From the IMG/VR virus record IMGVR_UViG_3300010244_000098: a stretch of 64,000 nt of DNA; one strand, written 5' to 3'. Of the stretch, positions 11,244 to 63,024 are shown in pieces. The translations under genes and the position numbers were made by a program. The notes beneath the pieces were generated by a model, which saw nothing but the letters and a program-made list of their open reading frames with translations, was not told where the DNA came from and made no database searches. Source of the DNA: a virus. Each line of letters opens with the position of its first letter. Position 1 is the stretch's first letter.

Positions 11244-11296
11244 TCCCCTTCTGATAAACTATAGAATGAATAACTACGATGAAAAGGAAGATTGCT

Positions 11297-12211
11297 ATGC
11301 TGAAAAAGAAAGGCCTATTGATCGAAATTGAAGGAGGCGAAGGAGCAGGGAAAAGCACTATTGTTAATCAGCTCAGACAACATCTGGAAAAAGATACTCA
11401 CGTTATAACGTTTCGCGAACCCGGCGGACGAGAGTTCTCAGAGGATATACGAGAGTTGTTCATGCGCTATGAAAATCTATCCACGGAGACTTATGTTCAT
11501 CTAATCAATGCTCAACGACAAGAGAATATCGAAAAAGTGATATCTCCTGCGATAACAAAAGGACATATTGTTATCGTTGACCGTTTTCTGGCCTCTACCC
11601 TCGTCTATCAAGGCCTTATGGAAGGTGCGTATGAAAAAACAGTCAAATACGCTATCGGTTACCCTTCCGTTACCCTTCTTGTTGACACACCAGCTGATGT
11701 AGGCCTGAAGCGCATCCATGATAATCAAAGAGAGACCAACCGCATTGATTTATGGCCTGTCGAGAAACATAATCATGCAAACAAGTATTATAAGCAACTG
11801 GGTTGTTACTACCCGAGCCGATATTGGGATATCGTTCTCAACGGGCGTCATGATACACAGACTATCGACAAACAACTGCACCGTATCGCCCAAGACATTG
11901 TTCCTTATATCAACGACAACCGTGCACTGCACGAGTTAAAAAGTGATTTACGTCTTACATATAATGCGCCTGCTGAGGAAAAACGCAAAGAAAAACCCCA
12001 ATTGGATATGGACCCATTGGATGTTCCTGTTGATCAGCTGTCCCTGCCCAACCAAGTTACATTTGCCTTAATGCGCTCGCGAATATTTACGATTCGAGAA
12101 CTCATCACGACCGATCACAATTTTATACAAAAGATCCCTCGTATAGGGGCAAAATCATTAGACCAAATCAATGACGCAATCGACCATTGGTTGCATGTAA
12201 ACCAGTTATGA
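11297..12211 (+). CDS. tmk: Thymidylate kinase fused to a C-terminal RNA polymerase alpha-CTD-like domain
   Basis: LIEIEGGEGAGKST P-loop, FREPGG, IVDRFLASTLVYQG; C-terminal LDVPVDQLSLPNQVTFALMRSRIFTIRELI...KIPRIGAKSLDQINDAI aligns by eye with RpoA CTD. Start at ATG 11297 (AAAGGAAG RBS). Confidence 0.85.
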   Translation: MLKKKGLLIEIEGGEGAGKSTIVNQLRQHLEKDTHVITFREPGGREFSEDIRELFMRYENLSTETYVHLINAQRQENIEKVISPAITKGHIVIVDRFLASTLVYQGLMEGAYEKTVKYAIGYPSVTLLVDTPADVGLKRIHDNQRETNRIDLWPVEKHNHANKYYKQLGCYYPSRYWDIVLNGRHDTQTIDKQLHRIAQDIVPYINDNRALHELKSDLRLTYNAPAEEKRKEKPQLDMDPLDVPVDQLSLPNQVTFALMRSRIFTIRELITTDHNFIQKIPRIGAKSLDQINDAIDHWLHVNQL

Positions 12212-26577: not shown

Positions 26578-26619
26578 AGTTTAACACAGGGTTTTTTACT
26601 CCTATGGAATTTTTCACAA
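26578..26619 (-). promoter_or_regulatory. Promoter with extended -10 and the conserved 21-bp upstream box
   Basis: Minus strand: TTGTGAAAAATTCCATAGGAG (26599-26619), 11 nt, GTGtTAAACT (-10 at 26578-26583). Confidence 0.6.
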
Positions 26620-26621
26620 CA

Positions 26622-26652
26622 GAAAAGGACAGTGGAAGCCCACTGCCCTTGT
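26622..26652 (-). terminator. Terminator after the RNAP gene
   Basis: AAGG-A-CAGTGG-aagc-CCACTG-C-CCTT hairpin with a T-run on the minus strand. Confidence 0.6.
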
Positions 26653-26661
26653 TCATCCTTA

Positions 26662-29600
26662 TTAGGTATAACTATACGACAAATCTCCAAAATCCATATC
26701 ATTCCCTTGGTCTTGTTGTTTTGTCTTATTGACCGCGTCTTTAGAGTAAGATTCGTTTGCACGAACCGCCTCTTTCAACATTTCGTGGTCGTAGGTCTCC
26801 TCATTGGGGGATTGTTCGTTTGTCGGAACACCCTGACCTTTTTGGAACTGCTTTAAGAAATCACGGTTGCTTTCATTCAAATCGCCTCGGTCGTTGGCTT
26901 TATACACCTGACCTCCTACGACTTTTTCTTCCGGTTGATGTTGACCGGCTAATTCTTTCATTTTCTCTTGTTTCTCCTTGATGAATGTTTTTTGCGCCTC
27001 ATATTGTTCCTTCGCTTGACCAAAATCACGGTCCAAATGTTTATGCACGTTCTTATAATCAACGTGATAAGGTTGAGAGTATTTTGTCTCCGTCACTTGT
27101 TTTGGATAAGCTGGATTCATTTCGTTCCACTCTTTGATTTTTTTCATGCCGTTTGCCCCATGTTTAGCCAAAATATCCAGAGTGTCGGAATTTTCAAAAG
27201 CATTTCGCTGGTGATTTCTCATCAATCCGGCGTTTTCTCTCGGAGAGTCCTCTGGCTCACGAAACGCTAATTGATAATAATCGACTTCTAAATCGGATAC
27301 GCTTAGTCCTGCGTCACTAAAAATAGATTTCATCCCTAAACGATACACACTCTCGCTATCGATAGGGGTATAATCATCTCCTTGTTTCAGATTTGATTTC
27401 CAATCGATTCTTTCCTCGTCGGCATAGAATTGTTTCATTTTTTCTGGATCATCCGAATAGAAATTCGGATAACGATCTGTCACCACGCCGTGATTGATGT
27501 CTGCATAAATAGATCCTTTGGCCGACCCTTTCGCATCCTCATTATACGTATTCGCTAACATATGGTCCATTTTACGAGCTAAAGCAACATCTGTTCCATT
27601 TGCCGCCTCCTCGAATGGACCGGGAGCACGGCCTGTTTGTACGTCGCCCACCCGTTTTGCTGTCTCCTCCGGTGTCTTTCCGAACATTTCTGAAGAAAAC
27701 TCAACCCATACAGGTTTGGACTCATCTGATTGTTGAACATCCTCTTTGTGTCCTTCGAATAATTTAGGCGATTCCTTCAAGAAACGTAACGCTGCCGGCA
27801 CGTCATTGGGGCTGTGTTTGATCTGCAGAATAGACTGAGACGCTGTTTCTGTCACATCCATCCCAACAGCCGCACCGGGAATGCGTCGACGTCCGCGGTA
27901 AAAATCATAATCCGCTAATACGTCCGTTACCTTCAATGTTTGAGCCCCGCTTCGTCCGATTTCGTCAACTTTTGTTTTCTGTGCTGTACGAACGGAGTTG
28001 ATATTATTCGGCGTCACACCATTTTTCAAATAAGGAGCGTTCCGTTCCTGAATGTCCGGTTCTTTTCCTTTCGCTCCGTCTTTAGCCATCGCGTATTGAG
28101 ACTCTAACAACGTATTTTCGTTTTGAATATCTACATACCGACTTGGATAATTATGACTATTTGTAGCCGTTACCTCAGTTAATTCTGATACTTTCGGGAA
28201 CGTATAGTCATCAATAACGTTTCGGTACGCTTCGTCATAAATAGCATTCCCTTGCTCAAGAATATCCCGATCCTCGTCAGACAACAATTCTGGACGAATG
28301 GCTTTATTCTCAACAATATTGTCAAAACGTTCTACATCGAAATCCTCATATTGAGATACAACATCGAATTGTTCATCAACCTGTCGCCATGTTTGTTCTT
28401 CGATATACTGAATGTAATCGTTCATGACGTCCTTGGGTTTGTTATCTTTGAAATAAGACGGGTCTTCCTGCTCTTTTCGTCCAGCCCATGATACTTGTTG
28501 ACGGAAGCCTTGTTCGCTGTCATCGTTAATCCATTCTTTCATGTAATCAACATTATCCATCCCTACATTGAGAATGGCTAATTCATTTCGTTTATCCATC
28601 ATGTTGTAGCGAATGTTTAATTTTTTGTCCCATTCCTGTTGAACTTCTTCGTCATCGATATAGGCAACTCCGAACGTATCGCCGTCAAAGTCAGCCCCCA
28701 TTGTGGCTGTCATCATTGGGTTGATGCTTACTCCAGTTAAACGTTCGTCAACACGATAGTCCATCGCAAAAACCGAACCATCATGGAGTACAGGGTCACG
28801 CCAAACCATGAGTTTGTCGCCTTCCGCCTCTTTTTTCGTCTGCCAATTTCCCCGGGCAGCTTCGTGGATTTTTGAAATGTTTCCAGTCTCCACTGCCTGT
28901 TCCCAGGATTCTTTGTCGATAGGTTCCAATACGCCGGCATTGATACCCATTGCCGGTGAAATACCCACTTTATCAAGTTCAAGAGACGTGTCGTTCGTTA
29001 GGATTGCTGTTGCCGAGTTCCGCATTTCTTTAGATAAAATTTTACGACGTGTGAACGACTGCTTGTTGCTTTTTCCATCAACACCAAACTGGTCTTTTTC
29101 AACACTGTTTTGATATTTGTTGACTTCTGTATCCAGCAATCGGGTTAGACGAGTGTAATCTTTTAAATTTTCTGATAAAGCCGTAGCCATAACTTCTCGA
29201 CTTTCATCACCTTTTACAGCATTGATCTCGTCCTTCATTTTTTCAGAAAATGGATAATTCGCTTTTTCTTTCATAAATTGATCATCGCCGGATTCATACA
29301 ATTGCTTCAAGTCATCTTCTGTGAGTTCAGGGTTCCCCATTCGCTCTTTAAAATCGTCCAGCCCTTGTTCATAAGTTAAAAGGTACTCCATTTGAAGATC
29401 TTCGACCTGTGAACCAAAATCAGCGATTCGATTTAACGACATTGTATAATCGTGTTCAACAAATTCTCCGTCGAATGATTTGGTTTCCCGACGCAAACGC
29501 TCTGCTAGGATGGGCATATAATTTGTTTGAACAGGACGAGGACTGTTGTCGTCTTTATAGGCCTTATGATTGATAGGCAGCTGCATATAAGACGCTTCTT

Positions 29601-32600
29601 CAGGCAGTCCGTATTCGGCAATATCTCTTGAAGATATCACTAGGAAGTCTTTGTCTCCATTTGGTGATTCAAACCGTTCAACCGACCCGTCTTCCTGCTC
29701 TCGTTCTTCGATATTCATGCCGTAACGTCCTTGACGCAACACGTTATCTTCGCCTGTTGTATATCCCAGAACATTTTGATAATGCAATAAATCTGCATGT
29801 TTTTTCTCGCTGTTGCCTAGAATATAACCGATTGTTTTGTCGGCTCCGTGGGACTGCAGAGCTAAACTTTGTTGGTAAGAAAACGTCCGATGACGCCCTA
29901 GATCCTGTAACTCATACAAATTCGTTTTATGTTCCGCGTCCATGTTCGTTACGATGACGGAAATTTCTCCGGCGTAGCCTCTAGTCTGTCCTTTGTTTGG
30001 ACCGTTCTGATAGGTGATAGCACCTTTACGGTCTTCGTTGGAATGGATCAACTCTTGTCCAAGCCCCATGTTCGCACGGCTTGTCATCCCGTAAGGGGAC
30101 TGAATCATATCCAATGGATACCCACTGTCTTCTGCGTCTTTAAATGCTTGTTCTGCGTCCTCATTATACCCGGGGTGGTTCGGATCCAGGCCTGAGATGT
30201 ACCCGATCACTCCTTTGTTGGAATGGTTATCGGCCAGTTTGTCCCCGATACGCAGTCCATGTTCTTCAGCAAACTCATCAGAAACAACAATAGAGTCCTC
30301 AAACGTTAGTCCACCGGCTGTCATCAACCCCACTCGTACACGGTCCCGTTCTTCTTCTTTGTCGAGTGGACCGCCGATGATGTCTTTGGCTACTTCACTC
30401 ATTTTCGATGTCATCAACACCCGATCCGGCGAGTCATATTGAGCATAATTACCGCGCATTCGCCGCACCATTGGACTGGCGTACATATAACGATGATTGC
30501 GTGTGCCTTCGTATAACTCTCGAAATGCTTCGTTTTGAGCATCTCGATTTCCTTGCTCACGGGCTGTCGTCCACCGGTTGAACGTTTCGGCTAAGTCGGG
30601 GCGTTCAAGGTTAGGGATCTCATCCAGAATTTTCTTCAATGGTTTTGATGCCTGTTGGCCTGTTACCCAGCGCTCTAACGGTGTTTCTTCTCCGTTGTCG
30701 CGGTGGAGCATACCCAATTGACCTGTTCGTTCAAAATTGAAACCTTTTTCTCCTTTATTTTCTTCAATGAAGTCCATAAATTCTTCCGTAAAATACCCGC
30801 GAAGTCCTAACGTTGCGCCGTCACTGGACGCTTGTGCGTCATACACGCCTTCAAGCCCTCTCAGTGGCAGACGAATAGATTGAGGTTGTCCGTACTGGTC
30901 TCTATCTTCTTTTGATTGTGGACGGGAATCTTCGCGAAGCTCTCCGTCACGATTCAGGTAGCTTTTATCAATTAAGAACGAATTACGCAAATGTTCAACA
31001 ACACCGGGACGGTCCATTCTTTCTCGGTCGATACGGCCCATGTCTTCATATGCTTTATTCATTCTTGTTACGTCATACATTTGATCACGGTCGGCTGACG
31101 CGTCGTTTCGTCGAGTCAACACCTGCGACTTCACAGAAGCATGGATAGCGGAGTGCATTTTTTGATCCAATCCTGTGATTTTCATGCGTTCCAGTATATG
31201 TGATTTATTCTGTGTTGGTGGGACAAACGCTACGTTGTAGTTATCAACACGCAAGTCTTCACGGCCATTTCCTCGGCGCAGGTCGAGAACGCCTTCCTTA
31301 CGGAGAAGGTTTCCGTCTCCGTCATATTCATTCTCTCTAGCCGGGAAAAAGAATTGACCCATTTTGAATTGAACCGGTTCAGATTCAATCACCTCGTTCG
31401 TCTGAGAATCAAACGCCGTGCCCCGGTCTCCGCCCCAGTGGAGCACGCCATCGTTGTCAAAACGGCCCTGGAAATGGCGAATACCCGCTTCTTCTGCCGC
31501 ACGTTTAGTCGTACGTAACACTTTTTCATAATCTTCCTTGTTCGATGTTTTTTCCAGATCCATCCAGCCGGCTAAAGGCTGGTCGGCATCGTCTGTTAAA
31601 CCTACCATCATGTTGGCGATTCGTTCACGAGAGCCTTGTTGCACCTCTACTTCTTCCTCTGCGGTGTGATCCAGGCTATCTTCGTCGTATCCTTCGTTTT
31701 GTGCCTCTGAGTTATATGATCTGTCTTCATTATGTAAAGGTTCACGTTTTCCATACATCAATTCATTACGGATATCGTCGATCGACTGACCCTGATTCAA
31801 CCGTTCCTCCGTATCATCATGCACCAGCCGCATAATTGTACCCATGTCTGAATGACGCATAACAACATCCATATCGATATCGTCCATGTTGATCGATCCA
31901 TCTTCATGGCGCACATCGTCTAAATCAATCAAACTGTCCACTTCGTTTTCATCACTGGACAATTGAGCTTTTTCGTACGCCTGCTCAACAAGTTCTGTCA
32001 TGGTCTGCGGTTGTAACAACTGGTCAACCTCTTGACGTTTGTAAGATTGAGGGTGACGTGTTCGTGAAGGCGTATTATGACCAATTGTAAACGATACATC
32101 ATAGCGGATAGAATTTCCTGAAGCGGATCTTTTTAGATCGGAATCTTTATTCATTCCTACGCTTGTAGCGTCAGACAAGGTTTTTGCTTTATGTACATCG
32201 AAGTGTTGATATTTCGATAAATCGGTCCCTTCCATGAAATATTCAACAGCAGGAATCAGAGACGCCGTTGACTCCCTTCCATCGCTGGCTCTGGCCAACA
32301 AATGACTGTTACGGAACACTGTGTTTCCATTCACATAAAATTTTCCTAAATCTTTTTCTTTCGGTGTAAATCCTAAAACATCAATCTGATTATTTCCAGA
32401 TTGAACAGTGAAACGTAAATCTTCTTGATTTACCCCGGTTACATGGACGTTCTTCATTGTCCATCCTTTTTCGTCCAGTTTTTGCTTCAAGCTTGTTCCG
32501 AAAGCGATCATACGCGGAGACAAGACGCGTTTATCCGATAAACCCCCTTTTTGCAACTCTCTAATTTGAGCAGGTGTCAGATTTAAATTAGCCTGGCTTA

Positions 32601-32964
32601 ATACGCCGTGAGGGTCTCGATTGATTTTTGGGTTATGACCCATTGAAAAGGCGCTGTTTACATCAATAAGCTCCTTTAATGAATAATAATTCACGTTGTC
32701 TTCAAAACGATTATTAGCCATTTTAGTATAAAATTCTCCATCATACCCTCGACCGTTGTCGTTTCGTAACTCACTCATCGCTTGGTTGGACGCCTGTTTC
32801 TTATCGTCTCCCGATAACCGTTGAGCGAAAGGAACATTTTGATGTGTTACATCGTACTTTAACCCGCTCGGGCGTCTGCGATTCGGCAGACTGTCCAGAT
32901 ATGTATCGTAATCTTGTTGATTTTCAATTTTAGGTTTTCCATTTTTCGTTAATTGTAAATCCAT
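26662..32964 (-). CDS. Single-polypeptide two-barrel (double-psi beta-barrel) DNA-dependent RNA polymerase, beta/beta' fusion
   Basis: Beta-like: SSDGATLGL, DSPDRVLMTSKM, TFEDSIVVS (E889/D890), GDKLADNHSNKG (K909/K917), SPYGMTSRANMG, RTFSYQQSLALQSHGA. Beta'-like: ILSKEMRNSATAIL, VWRDPVLH, INPMMTATMGADFDGD (D1425/D1427/D1429), bridge-helix-like VRTAQKTKVDEIGRSGAQTLKVTDV, trigger-loop-like AVGMDVTETASQSILQIKH (H1717). Confidence 0.93.
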   Translation of the reverse strand: MDLQLTKNGKPKIENQQDYDTYLDSLPNRRRPSGLKYDVTHQNVPFAQRLSGDDKKQASNQAMSELRNDNGRGYDGEFYTKMANNRFEDNVNYYSLKELIDVNSAFSMGHNPKINRDPHGVLSQANLNLTPAQIRELQKGGLSDKRVLSPRMIAFGTSLKQKLDEKGWTMKNVHVTGVNQEDLRFTVQSGNNQIDVLGFTPKEKDLGKFYVNGNTVFRNSHLLARASDGRESTASLIPAVEYFMEGTDLSKYQHFDVHKAKTLSDATSVGMNKDSDLKRSASGNSIRYDVSFTIGHNTPSRTRHPQSYKRQEVDQLLQPQTMTELVEQAYEKAQLSSDENEVDSLIDLDDVRHEDGSINMDDIDMDVVMRHSDMGTIMRLVHDDTEERLNQGQSIDDIRNELMYGKREPLHNEDRSYNSEAQNEGYDEDSLDHTAEEEVEVQQGSRERIANMMVGLTDDADQPLAGWMDLEKTSNKEDYEKVLRTTKRAAEEAGIRHFQGRFDNDGVLHWGGDRGTAFDSQTNEVIESEPVQFKMGQFFFPARENEYDGDGNLLRKEGVLDLRRGNGREDLRVDNYNVAFVPPTQNKSHILERMKITGLDQKMHSAIHASVKSQVLTRRNDASADRDQMYDVTRMNKAYEDMGRIDRERMDRPGVVEHLRNSFLIDKSYLNRDGELREDSRPQSKEDRDQYGQPQSIRLPLRGLEGVYDAQASSDGATLGLRGYFTEEFMDFIEENKGEKGFNFERTGQLGMLHRDNGEETPLERWVTGQQASKPLKKILDEIPNLERPDLAETFNRWTTAREQGNRDAQNEAFRELYEGTRNHRYMYASPMVRRMRGNYAQYDSPDRVLMTSKMSEVAKDIIGGPLDKEEERDRVRVGLMTAGGLTFEDSIVVSDEFAEEHGLRIGDKLADNHSNKGVIGYISGLDPNHPGYNEDAEQAFKDAEDSGYPLDMIQSPYGMTSRANMGLGQELIHSNEDRKGAITYQNGPNKGQTRGYAGEISVIVTNMDAEHKTNLYELQDLGRHRTFSYQQSLALQSHGADKTIGYILGNSEKKHADLLHYQNVLGYTTGEDNVLRQGRYGMNIEEREQEDGSVERFESPNGDKDFLVISSRDIAEYGLPEEASYMQLPINHKAYKDDNSPRPVQTNYMPILAERLRRETKSFDGEFVEHDYTMSLNRIADFGSQVEDLQMEYLLTYEQGLDDFKERMGNPELTEDDLKQLYESGDDQFMKEKANYPFSEKMKDEINAVKGDESREVMATALSENLKDYTRLTRLLDTEVNKYQNSVEKDQFGVDGKSNKQSFTRRKILSKEMRNSATAILTNDTSLELDKVGISPAMGINAGVLEPIDKESWEQAVETGNISKIHEAARGNWQTKKEAEGDKLMVWRDPVLHDGSVFAMDYRVDERLTGVSINPMMTATMGADFDGDTFGVAYIDDEEVQQEWDKKLNIRYNMMDKRNELAILNVGMDNVDYMKEWINDDSEQGFRQQVSWAGRKEQEDPSYFKDNKPKDVMNDYIQYIEEQTWRQVDEQFDVVSQYEDFDVERFDNIVENKAIRPELLSDEDRDILEQGNAIYDEAYRNVIDDYTFPKVSELTEVTATNSHNYPSRYVDIQNENTLLESQYAMAKDGAKGKEPDIQERNAPYLKNGVTPNNINSVRTAQKTKVDEIGRSGAQTLKVTDVLADYDFYRGRRRIPGAAVGMDVTETASQSILQIKHSPNDVPAALRFLKESPKLFEGHKEDVQQSDESKPVWVEFSSEMFGKTPEETAKRVGDVQTGRAPGPFEEAANGTDVALARKMDHMLANTYNEDAKGSAKGSIYADINHGVVTDRYPNFYSDDPEKMKQFYADEERIDWKSNLKQGDDYTPIDSESVYRLGMKSIFSDAGLSVSDLEVDYYQLAFREPEDSPRENAGLMRNHQRNAFENSDTLDILAKHGANGMKKIKEWNEMNPAYPKQVTETKYSQPYHVDYKNVHKHLDRDFGQAKEQYEAQKTFIKEKQEKMKELAGQHQPEEKVVGGQVYKANDRGDLNESNRDFLKQFQKGQGVPTNEQSPNEETYDHEMLKEAVRANESYSKDAVNKTKQQDQGNDMDFGDLSYSYT

Positions 32965-32998: not shown

Positions 32999-33040
32999 AG
33001 TGTAACACGGAGGCCTGTGCTCCTATGGAATTTTTCACAA
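32999..33040 (-). promoter_or_regulatory. RNAP-gene promoter with extended -10 and the conserved 21-bp upstream box
   Basis: Minus strand: TTGTGAAAAATTCCATAGGAG (33020-33040), 11 nt, GTGtTACACT (-10 at 32999-33004); same box and spacing as at 26599-26619. Confidence 0.65.
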
Positions 33041-33067
33041 AAAAACAGAGGGTCGTCCCCTCTGTTT
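33041..33067 (-). terminator. Intrinsic terminator after the VirB4-like gene
   Basis: Perfect AAACAGAGGG-tcgtc-CCCTCTGTTT stem with a T-run on the minus strand. Confidence 0.8.
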
Positions 33068-33086: not shown

Positions 33087-34979
33087 TTAAATAACTAAGT
33101 CCCATAAAAAGACGACATTTTTTGTGTTCCTTCGTAGATAATAATACTTTGGATTCCCGTCTGTAATCTCTTTGACAAGCTGAGACGGCAATTCTCCCTG
33201 GACAGCACGGCTGTAATTGGAAATGTCCACGCTGGACATGGACCCTGTAATGACAGTATCTGCTGATTCAAAAAACGGGCTGTCAATCATTTTCTTCACG
33301 TTATTGAAGCTGATGACCAATTTGACACTCATGTCCTGCAGGAAGTTTCTTTGATTATTGATGTATTCCCAAACCTCGGGTGTAATCGACTCTGCTCCAT
33401 AAATATGAATCACGTCGTGTTCTTTGATCTCCCCAAGCATATAAGTAAAGATGTTGATAAATTGAGCCATCAAAACGTCAACCCCGTTTTGTCTCAGTTT
33501 CGCAAAGGGAAAAATCTTACGTGGCTTATTGCGAAGTTCCGAATCATCAAACGAGGTATGGGTGTCGAATAAATCGCCATAAGACGTCTGCATGACCGAT
33601 ACCATATTCACGAGTCGTTTGAACCCCGCTGCCAACTCTTTGTTCTGTCCGACAGTCGCTGTTCCTTCTGCATGGATACGGTACTGCGATGATAAATAAG
33701 GAATTAATTTGTTTAGACGAGGCACTTCCGTATAATCATCTAAACCAACCATACGCAGACGGTCCCGGTTCTCTTGCGGGTTTTCCGACCACATGCCTTG
33801 TTGAATATAAAAGCCGTCTAAGGCTTCATCAAAAAGCATTAAATCATCTTTGGTCATATCCTCGTTCAACTGTTGAACCATCAGTTTCAACTTGTTTTTA
33901 AGAATAGCGTACGCCGACAATTCATTCTCTACGTCACCAAACGCTTGAAGGGGGTTGATCATCCCTTTATCCATTTGAACTTTAGCTGTCGAGTTTTTCA
34001 AATCCGCTCCAATCTGAGTCGGATCTTCGTTGTTCAATACAAGTTCATAGACATTTCGTCCTTTGAGCAGTTCGTTTTGAGCGAAGAAAGTCTGCCATGC
34101 TGCTTGAGCACTGAAATCGTATGGTTGTTTCCGACCAGCCATGATTGCTTTTCCGTTCGCCCCAATCAACGTCACGTCTCCGGCTGTATCCGTATCGTAC
34201 ATGACAGGGGTTTGATTCACGTCCCCGACGGTCATTCCAATATAATCCCCGTTGGGGTCACGCCAGCCTTTTCCTACAAATGGATAAAACCCGGCGAACT
34301 CCACGGACGTGTATCCGTCGTGGTGGCCCAACTGCGATGTAGCAGGGCCTAACATGTTTCTAAAGTCATCCTGTTGTTGGCCGATGTTCTGTGTCAATCG
34401 AGCTGAACCAAAACGTGTTTGGTAACGGCGGGATAATTCGGTAATCGTCTCAGTCAATTCCTCTTTCGTTGGGGCAAACAATAAAATTTTCGATGTAACG
34501 TCCAGATAAGACGCGCCTCCGGCAATTTCGCTTGTTGACACCCGATGATCCACGGCTCGTTTCCGGCTACGGTCAGCCTCTAACGCCTGACGCGCCATTT
34601 TCGCTTCCTCATGAGCTGTCTCAGATACTTCTGAAGCTACGGCCGAATGAGACTCCACCCAGCTCTCAGGGCGTGTCTGAAAGGCTACAATGAGCCTTGC
34701 TGTAACAGACCTGTTTTTCGTTACCGGAATCAATCGACTTCCCCACATTGGAGGCAATTGATTCACTGCACCAGCATCTGCTATAAATGTCAGAATAGCC
34801 CCGTAACTCAATCCGGTTTGGAAATAGTCTGAATAAAATTTTAAATTTCCGAAAGGAGCGATTTCTTGAAGAAAGGAATCAGATAACTTCCCTTTCGGTT
34901 TTTTCTTTTGTTTCTCTTTTGATTTTCCCTGCGTTTGATCCTTTCCTTTTCCCAATCGTTGTTTGATGCCTTCTAACAC
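33087..34979 (-). CDS. VirB4/TraE-like conjugation ATPase homolog with degenerate Walker motifs
   Basis: VirB4-like layout (FYPFVGKGWRDPNGDYIG..NQTPVMYD, INPLQ, LFDTHTSFD, IFPFAKL) and location among transfer genes. The Walker A position reads LIGANGKAIMAGRK and the Walker B position VIHIYGAES. Confidence 0.65.
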   Translation of the reverse strand: MLEGIKQRLGKGKDQTQGKSKEKQKKKPKGKLSDSFLQEIAPFGNLKFYSDYFQTGLSYGAILTFIADAGAVNQLPPMWGSRLIPVTKNRSVTARLIVAFQTRPESWVESHSAVASEVSETAHEEAKMARQALEADRSRKRAVDHRVSTSEIAGGASYLDVTSKILLFAPTKEELTETITELSRRYQTRFGSARLTQNIGQQQDDFRNMLGPATSQLGHHDGYTSVEFAGFYPFVGKGWRDPNGDYIGMTVGDVNQTPVMYDTDTAGDVTLIGANGKAIMAGRKQPYDFSAQAAWQTFFAQNELLKGRNVYELVLNNEDPTQIGADLKNSTAKVQMDKGMINPLQAFGDVENELSAYAILKNKLKLMVQQLNEDMTKDDLMLFDEALDGFYIQQGMWSENPQENRDRLRMVGLDDYTEVPRLNKLIPYLSSQYRIHAEGTATVGQNKELAAGFKRLVNMVSVMQTSYGDLFDTHTSFDDSELRNKPRKIFPFAKLRQNGVDVLMAQFINIFTYMLGEIKEHDVIHIYGAESITPEVWEYINNQRNFLQDMSVKLVISFNNVKKMIDSPFFESADTVITGSMSSVDISNYSRAVQGELPSQLVKEITDGNPKYYYLRRNTKNVVFLWDLVI

Positions 34980-34996: not shown

Positions 34997-35305
34997 TCAG
35001 TCCTTTTCCGTCAGCGCCGTCATGATGATATTTCGCAATAATGCAGAGCGTTTAATGCCCCTGTTATCGCAAATCTCATGAATCTTCTCAACAACCTCAA
35101 CAGGCAATTGAACCGTTGCCTGTTGTTTTGGCCGTTCGTTGAATACATTTAAATCATACGGTTTTTTATACCATTCGAGAACCAATTGACGTGTTAAGGC
35201 TGCTTCAGTAAGAAATAACGACTGAGCTTCCTCCTTTAAAAGTTCAAGGCCCGTAGCAGGAATTCTAAAATGAACACGTTTGAACGTTGTGTCTTCTAAG
35301 TTCAT
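34997..35305 (-). CDS. Tandem ribbon-helix-helix protein
   Basis: RVHFRIPATGLELLKEEA...EAALTRQLV and QATVQLPVEVVEKIHEIC..RGIKRSALLRNII. Confidence 0.7.
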   Translation of the reverse strand: MNLEDTTFKRVHFRIPATGLELLKEEAQSLFLTEAALTRQLVLEWYKKPYDLNVFNERPKQQATVQLPVEVVEKIHEICDNRGIKRSALLRNIIMTALTEKD

Positions 35306-37810: not shown

Positions 37811-37840
37811 ACTATACCATAGCTGATTTGTTGTAGTCAA
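37811..37840 (-). promoter_or_regulatory. sigmaA-like promoter
   Basis: TTGACT (37835-37840), 18 bp, TGgTATAGT (-10 at 37811-37816). Confidence 0.65.
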
Positions 37841-37911: not shown

Positions 37912-40900
37912 TTACTCGTTCTCGTATTCGTTGTCGTCACTGCCAAATAATTCATCAAATACATCCGGGGTGTTGCTCTGTTTCTCTCGAGGCGTGTTCA
38001 TTCGAACTCCTGCATCATGTTCTTTGGTATCCTTATGAACTGAGCCAAAGGGTGATGCGTTTGTAAGAGGTTCGGTCGATTGACGTTCCCTTGCGAACAT
38101 AGTTCCTCGTTCATTTGCATATCGAGTAGACGGTCGGTCCACGTTCGGTTGATCAGAATCTGTTTGGATAACGTTGGACCTTCCGGTTGACCCTTGACGT
38201 TCGTTGTTCACATACGTAGAACCTTTCGTCACGTCTTGATGTGTGTCATATGTTCCTGATTGATTTACCGTTGTGCTATCACGATTTTCACCAGAGAATG
38301 TTGACGTCACATCGCTATTTGTTGCATATCCATCAAGCGATTGATGAGTGCCTCGAACGTTTTGTTGTTGGTTCGGAGCATGAGTCTCAATATCGTCTTG
38401 GAATGTATTTGCTTCATTGATGTTTTCATTTACCAGGTCAGATCCTTCACGAACATATTGATTTGTCGATTTGTTTCCTACTGCACCGCTTTGTACAGTG
38501 TGGTCTGACGACATATCAACCTGGTCTGTTGCTTCAGATGTCGTATTGTATTGGTCTCCAAACTGACGTCCTGTTTCGCTAAGAGACCCAGCACCTGTCA
38601 TATGCCCAAGTGACTCGTTGTCTGTTGCTGAAGCACTTTGTTCGTTTGCTTCATTCATATCAACAGATCCTTGACCAATATCGCTCATGCGGTTCATTTC
38701 TCCGTGTGTGTGAATAGTTGAAGAATCACGACTGATACCGTTGGCATCGCTTGTTACGTCATAAGATTGATTATCTCCGTTAAGAGACGTATCGTAACCT
38801 GATGCACTCATATTTGGTGTTGTATCATAAGCAAGACCAGTATCCTGTGCTGATGAGCCTTCGGACTGAACGGATTCGTCCATATCGACAGATCCTTGAT
38901 CAACAACGCTCATACGATCCATGCGACCGTCTGTGTTCATTGTTGTTGAATCCTGCATGACTCCGTCGACATTCGACTCAGCCGTCACTGACTGGCCGTC
39001 TCCGTTAAGAGACGTATCGTAACCCGTCGTATTCATATCCGGTGTTACATTATAAGAAAAACCAGTATCCTGTGCTGATGAGCCTTCGGACTGAACGGAT
39101 TCGTCCATATCGACAGATCCTTGATCAACAACGCTCATACGATCCATGCGACCGTCTGTGTTCATTGTTGCTGAATCCTGCATAACTCCGTCGACATTCG
39201 ATTCAGTCGTTACTGACTGACCGTTTCTGTCGAAGTCCATGTCGGTATCTGTAACATCAAGATCGGACATTGTATCGTAACCAGACATCGTATCCTGTAC
39301 TGGCACGTCATCTAAGTGGCCTGACTGGTCCATTGGCCTGTCTACTTGGTCGTTTTGAATCTGAGACTCTTGAGAAATATCGCTTTGTCCAGTCACAGAC
39401 ACATCGTCTTGAATCTCTCCATTTTCTGAAAAGCTCGTGTCATACGATGACCCTTCTGCTTGATTATCTGATTCCATTTCAGCAAATGGATTGTCACTTG
39501 ACGTATCGTACATTCCTTCACTGTCCGCAACCATGTCTGAATCTGCATATGATACGTCTGCATCGCCACGGTTATCCGAGAAGACCGTTTCCTGATCGAT
39601 TGACTGATCTCCTTCCAATCCTACTTCGTCACGGAGCGTTTCGTCTGAAGATCCATCATTATTCGATAAGTGGCTCGCGGCTAATCCGGCTGCACCGACT
39701 GCTGTTCCTGTCGTCGTTGCTTCGTTTATATCCGGGATAGCACCTGTCTCATCTGTCATAGACTCATTGACGAAAGGATTCTCTTGATTTTCTTCATCAT
39801 GAACACTTATATCGCCGGCGTCCCTGTCGGATTCGCGGAATAGATCTTCATCATCCGCTGTTGAACTGTCTAACTCATTGGCGTATGTGTCATTATACGG
39901 CGCCATCGCTTCATCGTCATCAGCAAGCGTATTGTATCCGTCTTGGTCTGACGTATCCGCAAAAATATCTTGGTCTGCCATCTGTTGGTCATAATGCAAG
40001 CTTCCGCCATCTGCCCGAGCTTCTATAGACTCGTCTGCTCGGTTTTGTCCATCGCCAATATCATAAGCTCCTTGTTCGTCATCAGGGAATTGTTCCTGCA
40101 TATCTCCGGCTTCACGACTCATCGTCGCTGCCGCAAGTCCCGCATCCGCTTCGTTTATAGATTGATCTCCGGCATCTGACTCGATCAATTCATCCGCGCT
40201 GTTCATATCTCCACTGACAAGATATCCGTCATCATTCATACGCATAGCGCCTGCTTCACGTTCAGCGGAAATGTCTCCGTTGCTTGCATCGATTGTGTCA
40301 TCCGCTTCATTTTCCACGGCTTGATCGGCATTGGCTGTTTGATCCATTTGATCGCGATGTCCTTCATCCAAATCCATCTCTTGATCTTGACTTGCATGAA
40401 GGGTCTCTGTCTCTGTGATTTCTTCTTCGCTGTCCATATCGCTATAGTCGCCACCGAGAGCTTCTTCGCCCATAGTTTGACCATCTTCGTCCAGTTCTTG
40501 CTCTGCAGAAATATGTTCAAGGTTTCGACGTTCCCGTTCGCTTTCTTCTTCATCGTCACCAACACTGCCCATGGCTTCATCGGCATCTTGGAAATCTTGA
40601 GCATTTGAAATGTCACCCAATTCATTCGCGTTCGAATCATCGTCTGTTGTCGATGTTGACGAACCGCTCGTTGACGATTCTGTTGTCTCTGTTTCTTCTT
40701 CAGCGTCGTCACCGACACCGCCAAGTGCTTCTTCGCTATCTGTATGTCCTTGAGTCTGCCCTGATGAACCGCCTAACGCTGATTCATGAGCCAGTGATTC
40801 ATCAAAATCCTCTGTATCTCCGGTAGCCTGGCCACCGAGACTATCCCCAACAGCTCCCGCTGTGGATCCGGCCCCGACGGCCCCCATAACAGAACCGGCG

Positions 40901-43014
40901 AGCCCCATTTGGGACGCGTCACTGTCTGAGAAACTTCCGTACGAGGAATCTTCTGCGGACCCTTCGGACTCATCCGCTGTCACGTCCCCGTCGGCAATCG
41001 TGTCACCGCCACCGCCGTCTTTTCCTTTCAGATCGTTGGGACGAATTCCAGATATACGACTCGCCATATCAATAAAGAACTGATTTGATGATGACCCGAT
41101 TCGATTGTTCATAGAAAGAAACCCTTTGTACATCATAATGCCTAAAGCACCTGTGAGCACAGTCCCTAAAGCAATCTCACCAAGGGATTCTGTTCCTGCA
41201 CCGAACGGAAAAATCGTTCCAAAGGCCAACGGTCCTGTATCAATCATATGTAAAGGTGTCATAGTTCCACTACCTCCTGTCATTTCCATCAATGAAGGGA
41301 ATATTTCATGGATACCGGTTAACGCATCTCTAAATAACGCGATCATGGAGCGAGCAATAAATATTTGAATAAACATTGTAATCACGGCTCCAAACAGCAT
41401 AGACAATCCTCCGATAGAACCTAATCCGGCTCCGGAAGGGAACCAAAGGATTACGTTTTTAACCATATTATAAATAGCTCCTGCCATGAAAAAGTACATA
41501 TGGAACGCAAAAAATGTGACTAATCCAATGGTCAATAGCGTTTCGGTATATCTAAAGAACCCGCCGACGCCTCCGGGGATCGTATAATCTTTGTATTTGT
41601 ATTGAGCAGATAAGATCCCATCGTCTTCAATTTTCATCACACCGTCTTTGTTTGTATGTACACGGTAAAGAGCAAACAGCATTGAATTGTCTCCATATAT
41701 ATTTGACATATCCGAAGACGCTGTTGATGTTCCTCTCATCCAGCCATTAATCAGTTGTGTGGAATCAAAGTTCCAAAAATTACGAATATAGTCGATAGAT
41801 CCGTCCACTTCATCCATATTGATGCCACCGTCTTCGGTCACACCGGCAATGTCGTTCATTGCTTTTATATCGGACGATCGGATTGTAGACATACTCCCCG
41901 TACCTCCACCAGATCCGTTATAAATGTCTTCGACAGCTTTTAATGACTCTACATCATCGCTTTGTACGTTCCAAGACTGATTATCAATATCTACGCCATT
42001 TTCATCATAAGCATAGCCTGCTGTAACAAAACCTTTATAATCAAGAATGAGTTCAGAAACTTCTCCGTCTACACCGACATTGTCATCTATTCCCTGCATT
42101 CGGTCAGCGAACATGGTAATCATTCCTGACAACATAAATATCGCACCTGTCAGTGAGAATACAGAAACAAGCAATCGTTTCGTTGTCTCTCCCATGCTCC
42201 CCGCCATGCCTCGTCCTTTGCCGACGCGGAATCCAAGAACCGAAAGGCCCATTCCTGCGACAAATAAGAACAAGGCAACGATGTATCCAAACCAGCGACC
42301 AAAATTCAACCATTCTGAAAAATAGGCCATGACCGGGTTGGACGATTCACTGTACTGCCACTCGCTAAGTAATGTTTCTCCAGATGTGCTCTCTGGTAAT
42401 ATGTATTGAAAAACGTTAAAGGTGTCGAGCAGTTCATAAAGCAATTCTCCGAGCAATTGAGCAAAATGTCCAAGAACGGACGCGGCCATCAAAAGCGTAC
42501 CGCCTAAGTAACGACCTGCACTGTTTAGAATATTGCCCACAACATTGGTGTTCCAGTTATACGCAGAGTACACGCCGTACTGTGATCCCCAATACTGAAA
42601 AGCCATAAACATCTTGGCCGCATCTTCTCCTTTTTCTTCATTTCCTGACATTTCTCCAAACGGCGGGTCTCCTTCGGAACTCATAATGCCCATTCCGTTC
42701 GTTTCGTAGTTTCCATTTGCGTTTTCTGATGACGGAGTAATGTACCATTCCGTCCCTGTATATTCATCACTCGTTAAAACACTGGCTACTTCTTCAGATC
42801 CTGTAATATCTCGAAACAAGTTTCCGAGCGATTCCAGGGGGTGTTGCCACCAGCTTGCTTCAACGGTTGTTTCGTCCTGACCGGTATAGCTATGTACGAC
42901 GGACGATGTTGCTTGACCGATTGTTGCAAATAACGTGATGAACAATAACAAAATAATTATCGGCTTCATCCATGAAACCGTCAACCTCTCACGAGGCCGT
43001 GCTTGAACTTCCAA
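37912..43014 (-). CDS. Giant polytopic membrane protein, VirB6/TrbL-like, with a ~1000-aa acidic repeat tail
   Basis: Signal-like N-terminus; multiple TM helices in roughly aa 170-640; then a D/E/S/T-rich low-complexity tail. Located among transfer genes. Confidence 0.65.
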   Translation of the reverse strand: MEVQARPRERLTVSWMKPIIILLLFITLFATIGQATSSVVHSYTGQDETTVEASWWQHPLESLGNLFRDITGSEEVASVLTSDEYTGTEWYITPSSENANGNYETNGMGIMSSEGDPPFGEMSGNEEKGEDAAKMFMAFQYWGSQYGVYSAYNWNTNVVGNILNSAGRYLGGTLLMAASVLGHFAQLLGELLYELLDTFNVFQYILPESTSGETLLSEWQYSESSNPVMAYFSEWLNFGRWFGYIVALFLFVAGMGLSVLGFRVGKGRGMAGSMGETTKRLLVSVFSLTGAIFMLSGMITMFADRMQGIDDNVGVDGEVSELILDYKGFVTAGYAYDENGVDIDNQSWNVQSDDVESLKAVEDIYNGSGGGTGSMSTIRSSDIKAMNDIAGVTEDGGINMDEVDGSIDYIRNFWNFDSTQLINGWMRGTSTASSDMSNIYGDNSMLFALYRVHTNKDGVMKIEDDGILSAQYKYKDYTIPGGVGGFFRYTETLLTIGLVTFFAFHMYFFMAGAIYNMVKNVILWFPSGAGLGSIGGLSMLFGAVITMFIQIFIARSMIALFRDALTGIHEIFPSLMEMTGGSGTMTPLHMIDTGPLAFGTIFPFGAGTESLGEIALGTVLTGALGIMMYKGFLSMNNRIGSSSNQFFIDMASRISGIRPNDLKGKDGGGGDTIADGDVTADESEGSAEDSSYGSFSDSDASQMGLAGSVMGAVGAGSTAGAVGDSLGGQATGDTEDFDESLAHESALGGSSGQTQGHTDSEEALGGVGDDAEEETETTESSTSGSSTSTTDDDSNANELGDISNAQDFQDADEAMGSVGDDEEESERERRNLEHISAEQELDEDGQTMGEEALGGDYSDMDSEEEITETETLHASQDQEMDLDEGHRDQMDQTANADQAVENEADDTIDASNGDISAEREAGAMRMNDDGYLVSGDMNSADELIESDAGDQSINEADAGLAAATMSREAGDMQEQFPDDEQGAYDIGDGQNRADESIEARADGGSLHYDQQMADQDIFADTSDQDGYNTLADDDEAMAPYNDTYANELDSSTADDEDLFRESDRDAGDISVHDEENQENPFVNESMTDETGAIPDINEATTTGTAVGAAGLAASHLSNNDGSSDETLRDEVGLEGDQSIDQETVFSDNRGDADVSYADSDMVADSEGMYDTSSDNPFAEMESDNQAEGSSYDTSFSENGEIQDDVSVTGQSDISQESQIQNDQVDRPMDQSGHLDDVPVQDTMSGYDTMSDLDVTDTDMDFDRNGQSVTTESNVDGVMQDSATMNTDGRMDRMSVVDQGSVDMDESVQSEGSSAQDTGFSYNVTPDMNTTGYDTSLNGDGQSVTAESNVDGVMQDSTTMNTDGRMDRMSVVDQGSVDMDESVQSEGSSAQDTGLAYDTTPNMSASGYDTSLNGDNQSYDVTSDANGISRDSSTIHTHGEMNRMSDIGQGSVDMNEANEQSASATDNESLGHMTGAGSLSETGRQFGDQYNTTSEATDQVDMSSDHTVQSGAVGNKSTNQYVREGSDLVNENINEANTFQDDIETHAPNQQQNVRGTHQSLDGYATNSDVTSTFSGENRDSTTVNQSGTYDTHQDVTKGSTYVNNERQGSTGRSNVIQTDSDQPNVDRPSTRYANERGTMFARERQSTEPLTNASPFGSVHKDTKEHDAGVRMNTPREKQSNTPDVFDELFGSDDNEYENE
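38611..39240. repeat. In-frame 225-bp (75-aa) tandem repeat, about 3 copies
   Basis: ACAGATCCTTGA begins at 38663, 38888 and 39113; ACCAGTATCCTGTGCTGATGAG at 38836 and 39061; TCTCCGTTAAGAGACGTATCGTAACC at 38774 and 38999. Confidence 0.9.
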
Positions 43015-62983: not shown

Positions 62984-63024
62984 AGTGTAGCATACGCCCA
63001 CGGTTGTATTTGATTTTTTTCACA
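62984..63024 (-). promoter_or_regulatory. Promoter with extended -10 and TGTGAAAAA box
   Basis: Minus strand: TGTGAAAAAAA...aTGcTACACT (-10 at 62984-62989); box at the same offset as in the RNAP promoter. Confidence 0.5.

What the first reader, a model, noticed from the sequence alone, without database searches (positions are those of the whole stretch)
30211..30300. The element RNAP appears to lack the beta flap
Seen: only 18 residues separate D890 from K909 (SIVVSDEFAEEHGLRIGD). Established: in bacterial beta the equivalent residues (E. coli D814 and K1065) are ~250 aa apart and enclose the flap, whose tip positions sigma region 4 on the -35 element. I also saw no CxxC zinc motifs in the beta'-like part, and the first ~600 aa are unassigned. 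Inference: the enzyme cannot use sigma70-type -35 recognition; promoter or ssDNA-hairpin recognition may lie in the N-terminal region or a partner.
Basis: partly seen in the sequence, partly recalled or inferred. Interest (0 to 1): 0.65.

Follow-up and report, generated by a model that had tools for sequence, protein, structure and literature searches.

The report
Flap-less single-chain plasmid RNA polymerase
The 2,100-residue RNA polymerase of this conjugative element really lacks the 'flap' domain that bacterial polymerases use to place sigma on the -35 promoter box, but this is the normal, already published state of its whole family of mobile-element polymerases.

Summary
Observation confirmed. 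In the 2,100-aa ORF (window 26662-32964, minus strand), D890 (FEDSIVVS, = E. coli beta D814) and K909 (GDKLADNHSNKG, = K1065) are 18 residues apart. The gap is 250 in E. coli and 151 in Thermus beta. A confident AlphaFold2 model shows only strand-helix-strand there. The protein has no cysteine, so it has no beta' zinc sites.

The trait is not special to this gene. About 148 of roughly 160 family representatives have 18-37 residues at this point. Iyer et al. [quoted passage not shown] This scan has reported the same family on at least four other genomes.

No flap means no flap-tip/sigma-4 contact, but sigma independence is not shown. The lid and clamp helices (the sigma region 2 site in bacteria) are kept. 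The element's promoters look like extended -10 promoters without a -35 box.

'First ~600 aa unassigned' shrinks to about 480: residues 480-647 resemble the beta1 domain. Residues 1-479 are specific to this clade and match no solved fold. Residues 1481-2100 were not modelled.

Verdict: new member of a known kind, modest interest.

The parts
26662..32964 (-). Gene for the 2,100-aa single-chain beta::beta'-like RNA polymerase (P0002)
   Evidence: ORF and translation. Pfam Rpb2_6 at aa 898-975 and Rpb1_2 at aa 1371-1443. Family profile vs PDB beta' chains, E 2.6e-14.
30238..30297 (-). D890 to K909: the 18-residue link at the point where cellular beta subunits carry the flap (SBHM) insert
   Evidence: The model shows strand-helix-strand at pLDDT 86-95.
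29845..30384 (-). Beta-like double-psi beta-barrel (about aa 861-1040) with K909, K917 and SRANMG
   Evidence: Model residues 382-560. AR9 and PhiKZ beta C-terminal chains match with Z 13.3 and 13.2. phmmer to Taq and E. coli beta.
31024..31527 (-). Beta1 (protrusion)-like domain, aa 480-647, with no room for a lobe-sized insert
   Evidence: VIA-align: 3mlq_A beta1 domain Z 6.1 (122 aligned), 4kbj_A Z 5.4. Whole beta and A135 chains align from model residue 1.
31528..32964 (-). Clade-specific N-terminal region, aa 1-479. It is folded (aa 1-300 at pLDDT about 80-94) and matches no solved structure
   Evidence: Model mbbaf4ca9e612. Foldseek best E 0.065, VIA best Z 5.2. HMMs of this region hit only the 12 clade members. 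Conserved at 35-52% identity within the clade.
29065..29526 (-). Beta'-like lid motif (LAERLRR...DGE...HDYT) and an extended clamp-helix region, aa 1147-1300
   Evidence: hhalign to E. coli beta' 239-340, within the hit 1147-1473 = 239-508, Prob 97.5%. Long helices in the model. Archaeal clamp 3qqc_A Z 9.0.
28546..29064 (-). Beta'-like double-psi beta-barrel, aa 1301-1473, with the catalytic DFDGD at aa 1425-1429 (nt 28678-28692)
   Evidence: Rpb1 and beta' chains match with Z 13-14.6.
32999..33039 (-). Promoter-like site upstream of the RNAP gene: TGTGAAAAATTCCATAGGAG, 12 nt, then TGTTACACT (extended -10-like, no -35 consensus)
33047..33061 (-). Terminator-like hairpin with T-run, ending the upstream VirB4-like unit
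26578..26650 (-). Terminator-like hairpin (26625-26650) right after the RNAP stop codon. It is followed by a second exact copy of the 20-mer and by TGTTAAACT
33087..34979 (-). VirB4-like gene directly upstream; the adjacency is conserved
   Evidence: 31% identity (E 3e-96) to the gene directly upstream of the RNAP homologue on S. aureus plasmid NZ_CP150776.1.
20084..22165 (-). Topoisomerase gene downstream in the same transfer-region strand block
   Evidence: Pfam Topoisom_bac and Toprim. A topoisomerase gene also lies downstream of the RNAP homologue on the S. aureus plasmid.

Best explanation
The ORF encodes a single-chain, two-barrel, DNA-dependent RNA polymerase of the mobile-element family that the literature calls NCgl1702-like. 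It is a pruned beta fused to a fuller beta'.

Its beta-like double-psi barrel has the plain barrel connection (strand, 7-residue helix, strand; 18 aa). At this point every cellular beta/Rpb2 carries the 130-250-aa sandwich-barrel-hybrid 'flap/wall' domain. This is the usual state of the whole family, not a loss in this element.

What follows:
- Shown from sequence and model: there is no flap-tip helix and no cysteine-based zinc site.
- Shown from sequence and model: a beta1-like domain, both barrels, the lid motif and a clamp with elongated helices are kept.
- Read from motifs in the unmodelled C-terminal part: the bridge-helix and trigger-loop motifs are also kept.
- Inferred: the flap wall of the RNA exit channel is missing, so sigma region 4 cannot be positioned on a -35 box in the bacterial way. 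Flap-dependent responses to RNA hairpins are unlikely.
- Inferred: initiation must use another route. The candidates are the enzyme itself, its clade-specific 480-aa N-terminus, or an unidentified partner.

The gene lies inside the transfer (T4SS-like) gene block, next to a VirB4-like gene, as on staphylococcal plasmids. This suggests a role tied to transfer or establishment of the element (inferred).
For: - Residues and spacing.
- Two-part alignment to Taq beta that skips about 126 residues.
- K909 = E. coli K1065. FEDSI motif and 250 vs 18 residues.
- Model pLDDT 86.4 with strand-helix-strand at the link.
- Beta chains Z 12.3-12.9, beta'/Rpb1 chains Z 13-14.6, QDE-1 Z 13.0 over both barrels.
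- Beta' 239-508 homology, Prob 97.5%. Wider beta' homology over aa 1300-1623.
- Family size: 346 clusters at E <= 1e-3. About 148 of 160 representatives have 18-37 residues at the site.
- Published statement that the SBHM flap is absent in RdRPs, YonO and NCgl1702-like RNAPs (PMC7824862).
- YonO is an active, processive RNAP without these domains (PMC5467207).
- Plasmid relatives and conserved neighbours.
Against: - No activity data exist for this protein or its clade.
- Residues 1481-2100 were not modelled, so a flap-like domain there is excluded only by a weak profile test.
- The spatial position of the N-terminal 479 aa relative to the RNA exit channel is unknown. The two models were made separately and no coordinates were available.
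- Direct comparison with NCgl1702 itself was not possible.
- Intrinsic terminators and extended -10-like promoters flank the gene and its neighbours. They fit transcription by the host enzyme and leave the element polymerase's own targets unknown.
Confidence: 0.82

Rival explanations
1. The enzyme is not mainly a promoter-driven transcriptase. It is a conjugation-linked polymerase that works on the transferred single strand in the recipient, either making primers or transcribing early genes. It may even be shipped with the DNA. On such templates sigma, a flap and -35 reading are not needed.
For: - The gene sits inside the transfer block, directly after a VirB4-like gene. That adjacency and the downstream topoisomerase are conserved on an S. 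aureus plasmid.
- The last ~150 aa are poorly conserved.
- Earlier scan notes on other genomes raise the same idea. These are unchecked leads.
Against: - There is no evidence of export.
- An earlier, unchecked note says the element has its own primase-helicase elsewhere.
- The full set of lid, bridge-helix and trigger-loop motifs suggests processive transcription.
Confidence: 0.2
2. The polymerase borrows the host's sigma A through its retained clamp helices. It then reads the element's extended -10 promoters (TGnTAnACT), which have no -35 box and so need no flap-sigma-4 contact.
For: - The clamp-helix region is homologous to E. coli beta' 239-340 and is predicted as long helices.
- TGnTAnACT occurs 12 times against 5.6 expected. 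Eight of the sites lie just upstream of genes in intergenic DNA.
- No sigma-like Pfam domain was found in the 29 neighbouring ORFs scanned.
Against: - These promoters are explained more simply by the host holoenzyme.
- The clamp-helix region carries about 70 extra residues, and conservation of sigma-contact residues was not examined.
- For YonO, the one studied relative, it is still open whether it recognises promoters alone or needs a host or phage factor (PMC5467207).
Confidence: 0.1
3. A flap-equivalent exists elsewhere. It could be in the unmodelled C-terminal 620 aa, in the N-terminal 479 aa folded against the exit channel, or in a separate neighbouring protein.
For: - Residues 1481-2100 were not modelled.
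- The N-terminal region holds a well-predicted alpha/beta domain (aa ~130-300) of unknown role.
- Several neighbouring ORFs have no Pfam match.
Against: - The E. coli flap segment finds no match in the family profile (Prob 0.2%).
- No RNAP flap or wall chain appears among the fold matches of the N-terminal model.
- Part of the C-terminal region aligns to conserved beta' regions, which leaves little room.
- The N-terminal region is absent from most of the family.
Confidence: 0.07
4. The short spacing is an alignment or frame artefact, or the gene is a decaying pseudo-enzyme.
For: None found.
Against: - The frame is uninterrupted over 2,100 codons.
- Relatives of the same length share 49-77% identity.
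- Catalytic residues are invariant.
- The model is confident.
Confidence: 0.01

Closest known systems
NCgl1702-like RNA polymerases of mobile elements (Iyer, Koonin and Aravind 2003; Iyer and Aravind 2012; as summarised in PMC7824862)
   Same: One polypeptide with a beta-like barrel followed by a beta'-like barrel. No SBHM/flap insert in the beta barrel. Carried on mobile elements. Several hundred, mostly actinobacterial, relatives of 1,700-2,500 aa.
   Different: This protein belongs to a small low-GC clade known only from unnamed assemblies. The clade has the shortest link (18 aa against the usual 28) and its own 479-aa N-terminus. NCgl1702 itself could not be compared, and the two original papers are not held.
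YonO of Bacillus subtilis prophage SPbeta (PMC5467207)
   Same: A single-chain two-barrel enzyme that lacks the flap and most accessory domains. It is experimentally a processive DNA-dependent RNAP. How it finds promoters is still open.
   Different: YonO is about 100 kDa and has no detectable trigger-loop homology. P0002 is 2,100 aa and keeps lid, clamp, bridge-helix and trigger-loop motifs and a beta1-like domain. tblastn against the phage collection found no YonO-type match.
Bacterial RNAP beta and beta' subunits (E. coli, Thermus)
   Same: FED, GDKxxxxHxNKG and SRxNxG motifs in beta. Lid, NADFDGD-type loop and the MADSGARG-like motif in beta'. Fold matches of Z 12-13.
   Different: The two subunits are fused in one chain. 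There is no flap (18 vs 151-250 residues), no zinc-binding cysteines, and probably no beta2 lobe. About 570 residues stand in for a beta subunit of about 1,300.
Eukaryotic RNA-dependent RNA polymerases QDE-1 and RDR2
   Same: Single chain and compact barrels without the SBHM insert. Structural match across both barrels: QDE-1 Z 13.0 with 395 aligned; RDR2 Z 11.6.
   Different: These are eukaryotic silencing enzymes. What the QDE-1 paper calls a 'flap' is an unrelated helical subdomain after the second barrel (PMC1750930). P0002 has far more beta' sequence homology.
Phage single-chain two-barrel RNAPs (P23-45 gp96, P74-26 gp62, crAss-like phi14:2 gp66)
   Same: Single-chain relatives of cellular RNAP encoded by mobile genetic entities. 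Z 10.8-11.1 for the Thermus phage enzymes and 7.3 for gp66.
   Different: These are phage enzymes: gp96 and gp66 are carried in the virion, gp62 is the non-virion polymerase. There is no sequence match in the phage collection. The genomic setting here is a conjugation module.

Membership tests
Single-chain two-barrel RNAPs of mobile elements (NCgl1702-like) | Beta-like and beta'-like double-psi barrels in one polypeptide, in that order | tested here: met
   Pfam Rpb2_6 at 898-975 and Rpb1_2 at 1371-1443. Model and fold matches.
Single-chain two-barrel RNAPs of mobile elements (NCgl1702-like) | Catalytic DxDGD triad in the beta' barrel and two lysines in the beta barrel | tested here: met
   DFDGD at 1425-1429, K909 and K917. 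All are invariant in 15 and in 36 sequences.
Single-chain two-barrel RNAPs of mobile elements (NCgl1702-like) | No SBHM (flap) insert in the beta barrel | tested here: met
   18 residues, modelled as strand-helix-strand. About 148 of 160 relatives have 18-37 residues here.
Single-chain two-barrel RNAPs of mobile elements (NCgl1702-like) | Encoded on a mobile element | tested here: met
   Clp-type ATPase and topoisomerase genes in the same block. VirB4-like neighbour conserved on an S. aureus plasmid. Plasmid relatives.
Single-chain two-barrel RNAPs of mobile elements (NCgl1702-like) | Sequence relatedness to the name-giving protein NCgl1702 of Corynebacterium glutamicum | not tested
   No reference sequence was available through the tools. 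Relatedness to a large actinobacterial family is shown (E 1e-30 to 1e-48).
Single-chain two-barrel RNAPs of mobile elements (NCgl1702-like) | DNA-dependent RNA polymerase activity | not testable with these tools
   This needs purified protein.
YonO-like RNAPs | Detectable sequence homology to YonO-type phage proteins | tested here: inconclusive
   tblastn of the whole protein and of aa 840-1480 against 50,697 phage records found no YonO-type hit. tblastn is insensitive at this distance.
Bacterial multisubunit RNAP (beta subunit) | Flap (SBHM) domain between the equivalents of E. coli D814 and K1065 | tested here: not met
Bacterial multisubunit RNAP (beta subunit) | Beta2 lobe inserted in the beta1 domain | tested here: inconclusive
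   The beta1-like domain is only about 168 residues. It matches the beta1-only construct 3mlq_A (Z 6.1) and about 120 residues of the beta1-beta2 chain 4kbj_A. No residue-level superposition was available.
Bacterial multisubunit RNAP (beta' subunit) | Cysteine zinc sites (E. coli C70/72/85/88 and C814/888/895/898) | tested here: not met
   0 Cys in 2,100 aa. E. coli beta' has Cys at those positions.
Sigma-70-dependent holoenzyme | Beta' clamp helices (docking site for sigma region 2) | tested here: inconclusive
   A homologous, elongated helical region is present. Sigma binding was not tested.
Sigma-70-dependent holoenzyme | Flap-tip helix for sigma region 4 | tested here: not met
   No flap is present.

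The most novel reading that the evidence does not exclude
In this low-GC plasmid clade the clade-specific 479-aa N-terminus replaces sigma as a built-in specificity module. The polymerase, encoded inside the transfer operon, then transcribes (or primes on) the element's own DNA. It would start from the conserved 20-nt block TGTGAAAAATTCCATAGGAG that flanks its own gene, possibly on the incoming strand in a new host. That would be a conjugation-coupled, sigma-free transcription system.
Probability: 0.1. Interest if true: 0.75.

Novelty: new member of a known kind. Interest (0 to 1): 0.3.

Why it matters
The absence of the flap is not a discovery. It is a stated family trait of RdRP, YonO and NCgl1702-like two-barrel polymerases.

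The value lies elsewhere. This clade is a naturally pruned enzyme: it has no flap, no zinc sites and probably no lobe. Unlike YonO, it still shows the lid, the clamp helices, the bridge helix and a recognisable trigger loop.

Relatives sit in the transfer modules of plasmids of staphylococci, lactococci and many actinobacteria. How any bacterial flap-less two-barrel polymerase finds its start sites was left open in the 2017 YonO paper (PMC5467207), and my searches found nothing later. A soluble member of this family, paired with candidate promoters right beside its gene, would make that question testable.

Tried and rejected
- The first structure job (aa 600-1750) failed and was not counted. 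I replaced it with aa 480-1480 and aa 1-500, so aa 1481-2100 stayed unmodelled.
- PHROGs gave no family.
- The phage collection gave no match to the whole protein and only weak cellular-type RNAP hits to the core.
- The protein Atlas gave nothing usable for aa 1-480 and only scores below 0.8 for aa 1740-2100.
- The search for shorter homologues returned only fragments.
- N-terminal model: Foldseek best E 0.065, VIA best Z 5.2. The best rows were a mix of small alpha/beta domains, including the T4 MotA C-terminal domain. I treat all of them as noise.
- The E. coli flap segment against the family profile gave Prob 0.2%.
- The 60-125-aa inserts that about 12 relatives carry at the flap position look helical by composition. 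I did not take them for flaps, and they were not modelled.
- The 191-aa ORF downstream of the RNAP gene shows no similarity to the ORF in the same position on the S. aureus plasmid. The 1,700-aa ORF is not similar to the C-terminal part of that plasmid's coupling protein.
- A metagenome scan for the 20-mer returned 5 unrelated contigs.
- No whole genome is held for the window, so sigma genes elsewhere on the 222-kb contig could not be sought.
- The Iyer 2003 and 2012 papers are not held.
- Literature searches for later work on YonO promoters, or on two-barrel RNAPs in conjugation, found nothing.
- I considered zero cysteines as a sign of an exported protein and dropped it, because the whole element is cysteine-poor.
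Full report
**What is at the site.** Coordinates 30211-30300 lie inside one long minus-strand ORF, 26662-32964, which encodes a 2,100-aa protein, P0002. In that frame E889-D890 end the motif LTFEDSIVVS. K909 and K917 lie in GDKLADNHSNKG. The catalytic DFDGD is at residues 1425-1429. Pfam recognises only the two barrels: RNA_pol_Rpb2_6 at 898-975 and RNA_pol_Rpb1_2 at 1371-1443.

**Equivalence to the beta subunit.**
- phmmer against PDB sequences splits the match to Thermus aquaticus beta in two. P0002 875-899 pairs with Taq 671-695 ([25 protein letters not shown]). P0002 893-968 pairs with Taq 822-884 (..LQVGDKLANRHGNKGV..).
- The two query stretches overlap, while about 126 Taq residues between them have no partner.
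- hhalign of the family profile against E. coli rpoB places P0002 904-971 on beta 1058-1114, so K909 = K1065 and K917 = K1073.
- E. coli beta reads [21 protein letters not shown] against P0002 VRVGLMTAGGLTFEDSIVVSD, so D890 = D814.
- The gap is 250 residues in E. coli, 151 in Taq and 18 here.

**Structure.** An AlphaFold2 model of residues 480-1480, built with 27 relatives, has mean pLDDT 86.4 and pTM 0.74. Between D890 and K909 it shows a strand (891-894), a seven-residue helix (896-902) and the next strand (909-912), at pLDDT 86-95. This is the plain connection of a double-psi barrel, with no inserted domain.

VIA-align against 48,161 PDB representatives gave these matches:

| Part of the model | Matched structure | Z | Aligned |
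|---|---|---|---|
| 1-570 (aa 480-1049) | Xanthomonas beta 41-1333 | 12.3 | 438 |
| 1-570 | yeast A135 | 12.9 | 435 |
| 1-168 | isolated beta1 domain, 3mlq_A | 6.1 | 122 |
| 1-168 | beta1-beta2 chain, 4kbj_A | 5.4 | 120 |
| 346-549 | AR9 beta C-terminal chain | 13.3 | 174 |
| 351-531 | PhiKZ beta C-terminal chain | 13.2 | 159 |
| 593-986 | first third of Rpb1/beta' | 13-14.6 | 245-302 |
| 571-827 | archaeal clamp bound to Spt4/5 (3qqc_A) | 9.0 | 154 |
| both barrels | QDE-1 | 13.0 | 395 |
| both barrels | P74-26 gp62 | 11.1 | 230 |
| both barrels | P23-45 gp96 | 10.8-10.9 | 207-208 |
| both barrels | crAss gp66 | 7.3 | 447 |

About 570 residues therefore stand in for a beta subunit of about 1,300. 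The beta1-like domain has no room for a lobe.

hhalign puts P0002 1147-1473 on E. coli beta' 239-508 (Prob 97.5%). That span includes the lid motif and the clamp helices, which carry about 70 extra residues here. The profile search also matches the beta' MADSGARG region. The bridge-helix and trigger-loop motifs are visible in the alignment consensus.

**Zinc sites.** P0002 has no cysteine at all. E. coli beta' has its eight zinc ligands at the expected positions. Most of the clade has 0-1 Cys. In the wider family the median is 6, and only 9 of 143 proteins contain any CxxC. Zero cysteines is not a mark of this protein, because the other ORFs of the window hold 0.07% Cys, which gives P(0 Cys) of about 0.23.

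**Is the flap elsewhere?**
- The E. coli segment 815-1064 finds nothing in the family profile (Prob 0.2%). This is a weak test with a single-sequence template.
- A model of residues 1-500 has pLDDT 74.6 overall and about 80-94 for residues 1-300. It has no significant Foldseek match (best E 0.065) and a best VIA Z of 5.2, with no RNAP flap or wall chain among the rows.
- Residues 1481-2100 were not modelled. Part of that stretch aligns weakly to a conserved C-terminal beta' region.
- A flap elsewhere is therefore unlikely but not excluded.

**The N-terminus.** The unassigned part is about 479 aa, not 600. It is conserved at 35-52% identity within the clade. HMMs built from it hit only the 12 clade members and none of about 145 other family representatives.

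**How general is this?**
- An exhaustive HMMER search finds 346 clusters at E <= 1e-3, mostly 1,700-2,500 aa long.
- In an HMM alignment of the best 150 plus the near relatives, about 148 have 18-37 residues at this site. The spacing is 28 in 97 of them and 18 in 13, which include this protein's clade.
- About 12 carry a 60-125-aa insert whose composition looks helical. These were not modelled.
- Named relatives are nearly all Actinobacteria, plus plasmids of Staphylococcus, Lactococcus, Gordonia, Rhodococcus and Streptomyces.

**What the literature says.** Iyer et al. 2021 (PMC7824862, section 3.4.3) state that the SBHM domain inserted in the beta barrel, 'the so-called flap', binds sigma or TFIIB. 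[quoted passage not shown] Forrest et al. 2017 (PMC5467207) showed that YonO, which lacks these domains, is a processive DNA-dependent RNAP. They left open whether it finds promoters alone or with a factor. The QDE-1 'flap' is an unrelated helical subdomain. This scan has also reported the same family on at least four other genomes.

**Context.**
- The gene lies in a minus-strand block with a VirB4-like gene directly upstream, a Clp-type ATPase, and a topoisomerase downstream.
- On S. aureus plasmid NZ_CP150776.1 a 1,787-aa homologue lies after a TraM-recognition (coupling) protein. It lies directly after a gene 31% identical (E 3e-96) to the window's VirB4-like gene, and a topoisomerase lies downstream.
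- No sigma-type Pfam domain was found in the 29 ORFs scanned.
- The RNAP gene is bracketed by terminator-like hairpins (33047-33061 and 26625-26650). Each is followed by the same exact 20-mer, TGTGAAAAATTCCATAGGAG, and an extended -10-like TGTTA[CA]ACT, with no -35 consensus.
- TGnTAnACT occurs 12 times against 5.6 expected, mostly upstream of genes.
- By established knowledge of extended -10 promoters, the host holoenzyme could use such sites without a -35 box. They do not reveal the targets of the element's polymerase.

**Verdict.** The lack of the flap removes the sigma-4 docking point, but sigma independence, promoter reading by the N-terminus and ssDNA-hairpin use are untested. The clamp helices that dock sigma region 2 in bacteria are retained. 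This is a new member (a distinct low-GC clade) of a known kind.

Noticed in passing
window 33020-33039(-) and 26599-26618(-); looser copy at 62984-63024(-): An exact 20-mer, TGTGAAAAATTCCATAGGAG, sits after a terminator hairpin both just upstream and just downstream of the RNAP gene. Each copy is followed by an extended -10-like TGTTA[CA]ACT with no -35 consensus. It could be a shared operator or an element-specific promoter. A metagenome scan for it found only unrelated contigs.
   Followed up: partly
window intergenic sites 43050, 48157, 54051, 59760, 62984 (minus strand) and 11252 (plus strand): TGnTAnACT occurs 12 times against 5.6 expected, mostly just upstream of genes. One classical TTGACT-18-TATAGT promoter lies at 37811-37840. 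The transfer region seems to run mainly on extended -10 promoters without a -35 box.
   Followed up: partly
whole window: The element is extremely cysteine-poor: 10 Cys in about 14,000 residues of 27 large ORFs. The 2,100-aa RNAP and the 1,700-aa ORF (37912-43014) have none.
   Followed up: partly
family members P0033, P0055, P0058, P0072, P0074, P0078, P0079, P0084, P0091, P0097, P0098, P0138: About 12 distant relatives carry a 60-125-aa insert at exactly the site where cellular beta has the flap. The insert is rich in E, K and L and looks helical. It may be an independent acquisition at the same point of the barrel. It was not modelled.
   Followed up: partly
window 31024-31527(-) (aa 480-647): The beta1-like domain is only about 168 residues, so the beta2 lobe seems to be missing as well as the flap.
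   Followed up: partly
window 31528-32964(-) (aa 1-479): The N-terminal region is confidently folded over aa 1-300 and is conserved only within the 12-member clade. It has no solved-structure match. The weak rows around Z 5 include the DNA-binding C-terminal domain of T4 MotA, which is within the noise.
   Followed up: partly
window 33087-34979(-) and L078 2083-4209: The adjacency of the VirB4-like gene and the RNAP gene is conserved with S. aureus plasmid NZ_CP150776.1 (31% identity, E 3e-96). A topoisomerase lies downstream in both.
   Followed up: yes
window 34997-35305(-): A 102-aa ribbon-helix-helix (CopG-type) protein is encoded just upstream of the VirB4-like gene. It is a possible regulator of the block that contains the RNAP gene.
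   Followed up: no
window 11279-12211(+): Pfam confirms a thymidylate kinase fused to an RNA polymerase alpha C-terminal domain (PF03118, E 1.5e-7). This is curious in an element that has its own alpha-less polymerase.
   Followed up: no
window 26665-27100(-) (about the last 150 aa of P0002): The C-terminal tail is the least conserved part of the protein (22-33% identity in the clade) and is rich in Q, N, E and K. Its role is unknown.
   Followed up: no
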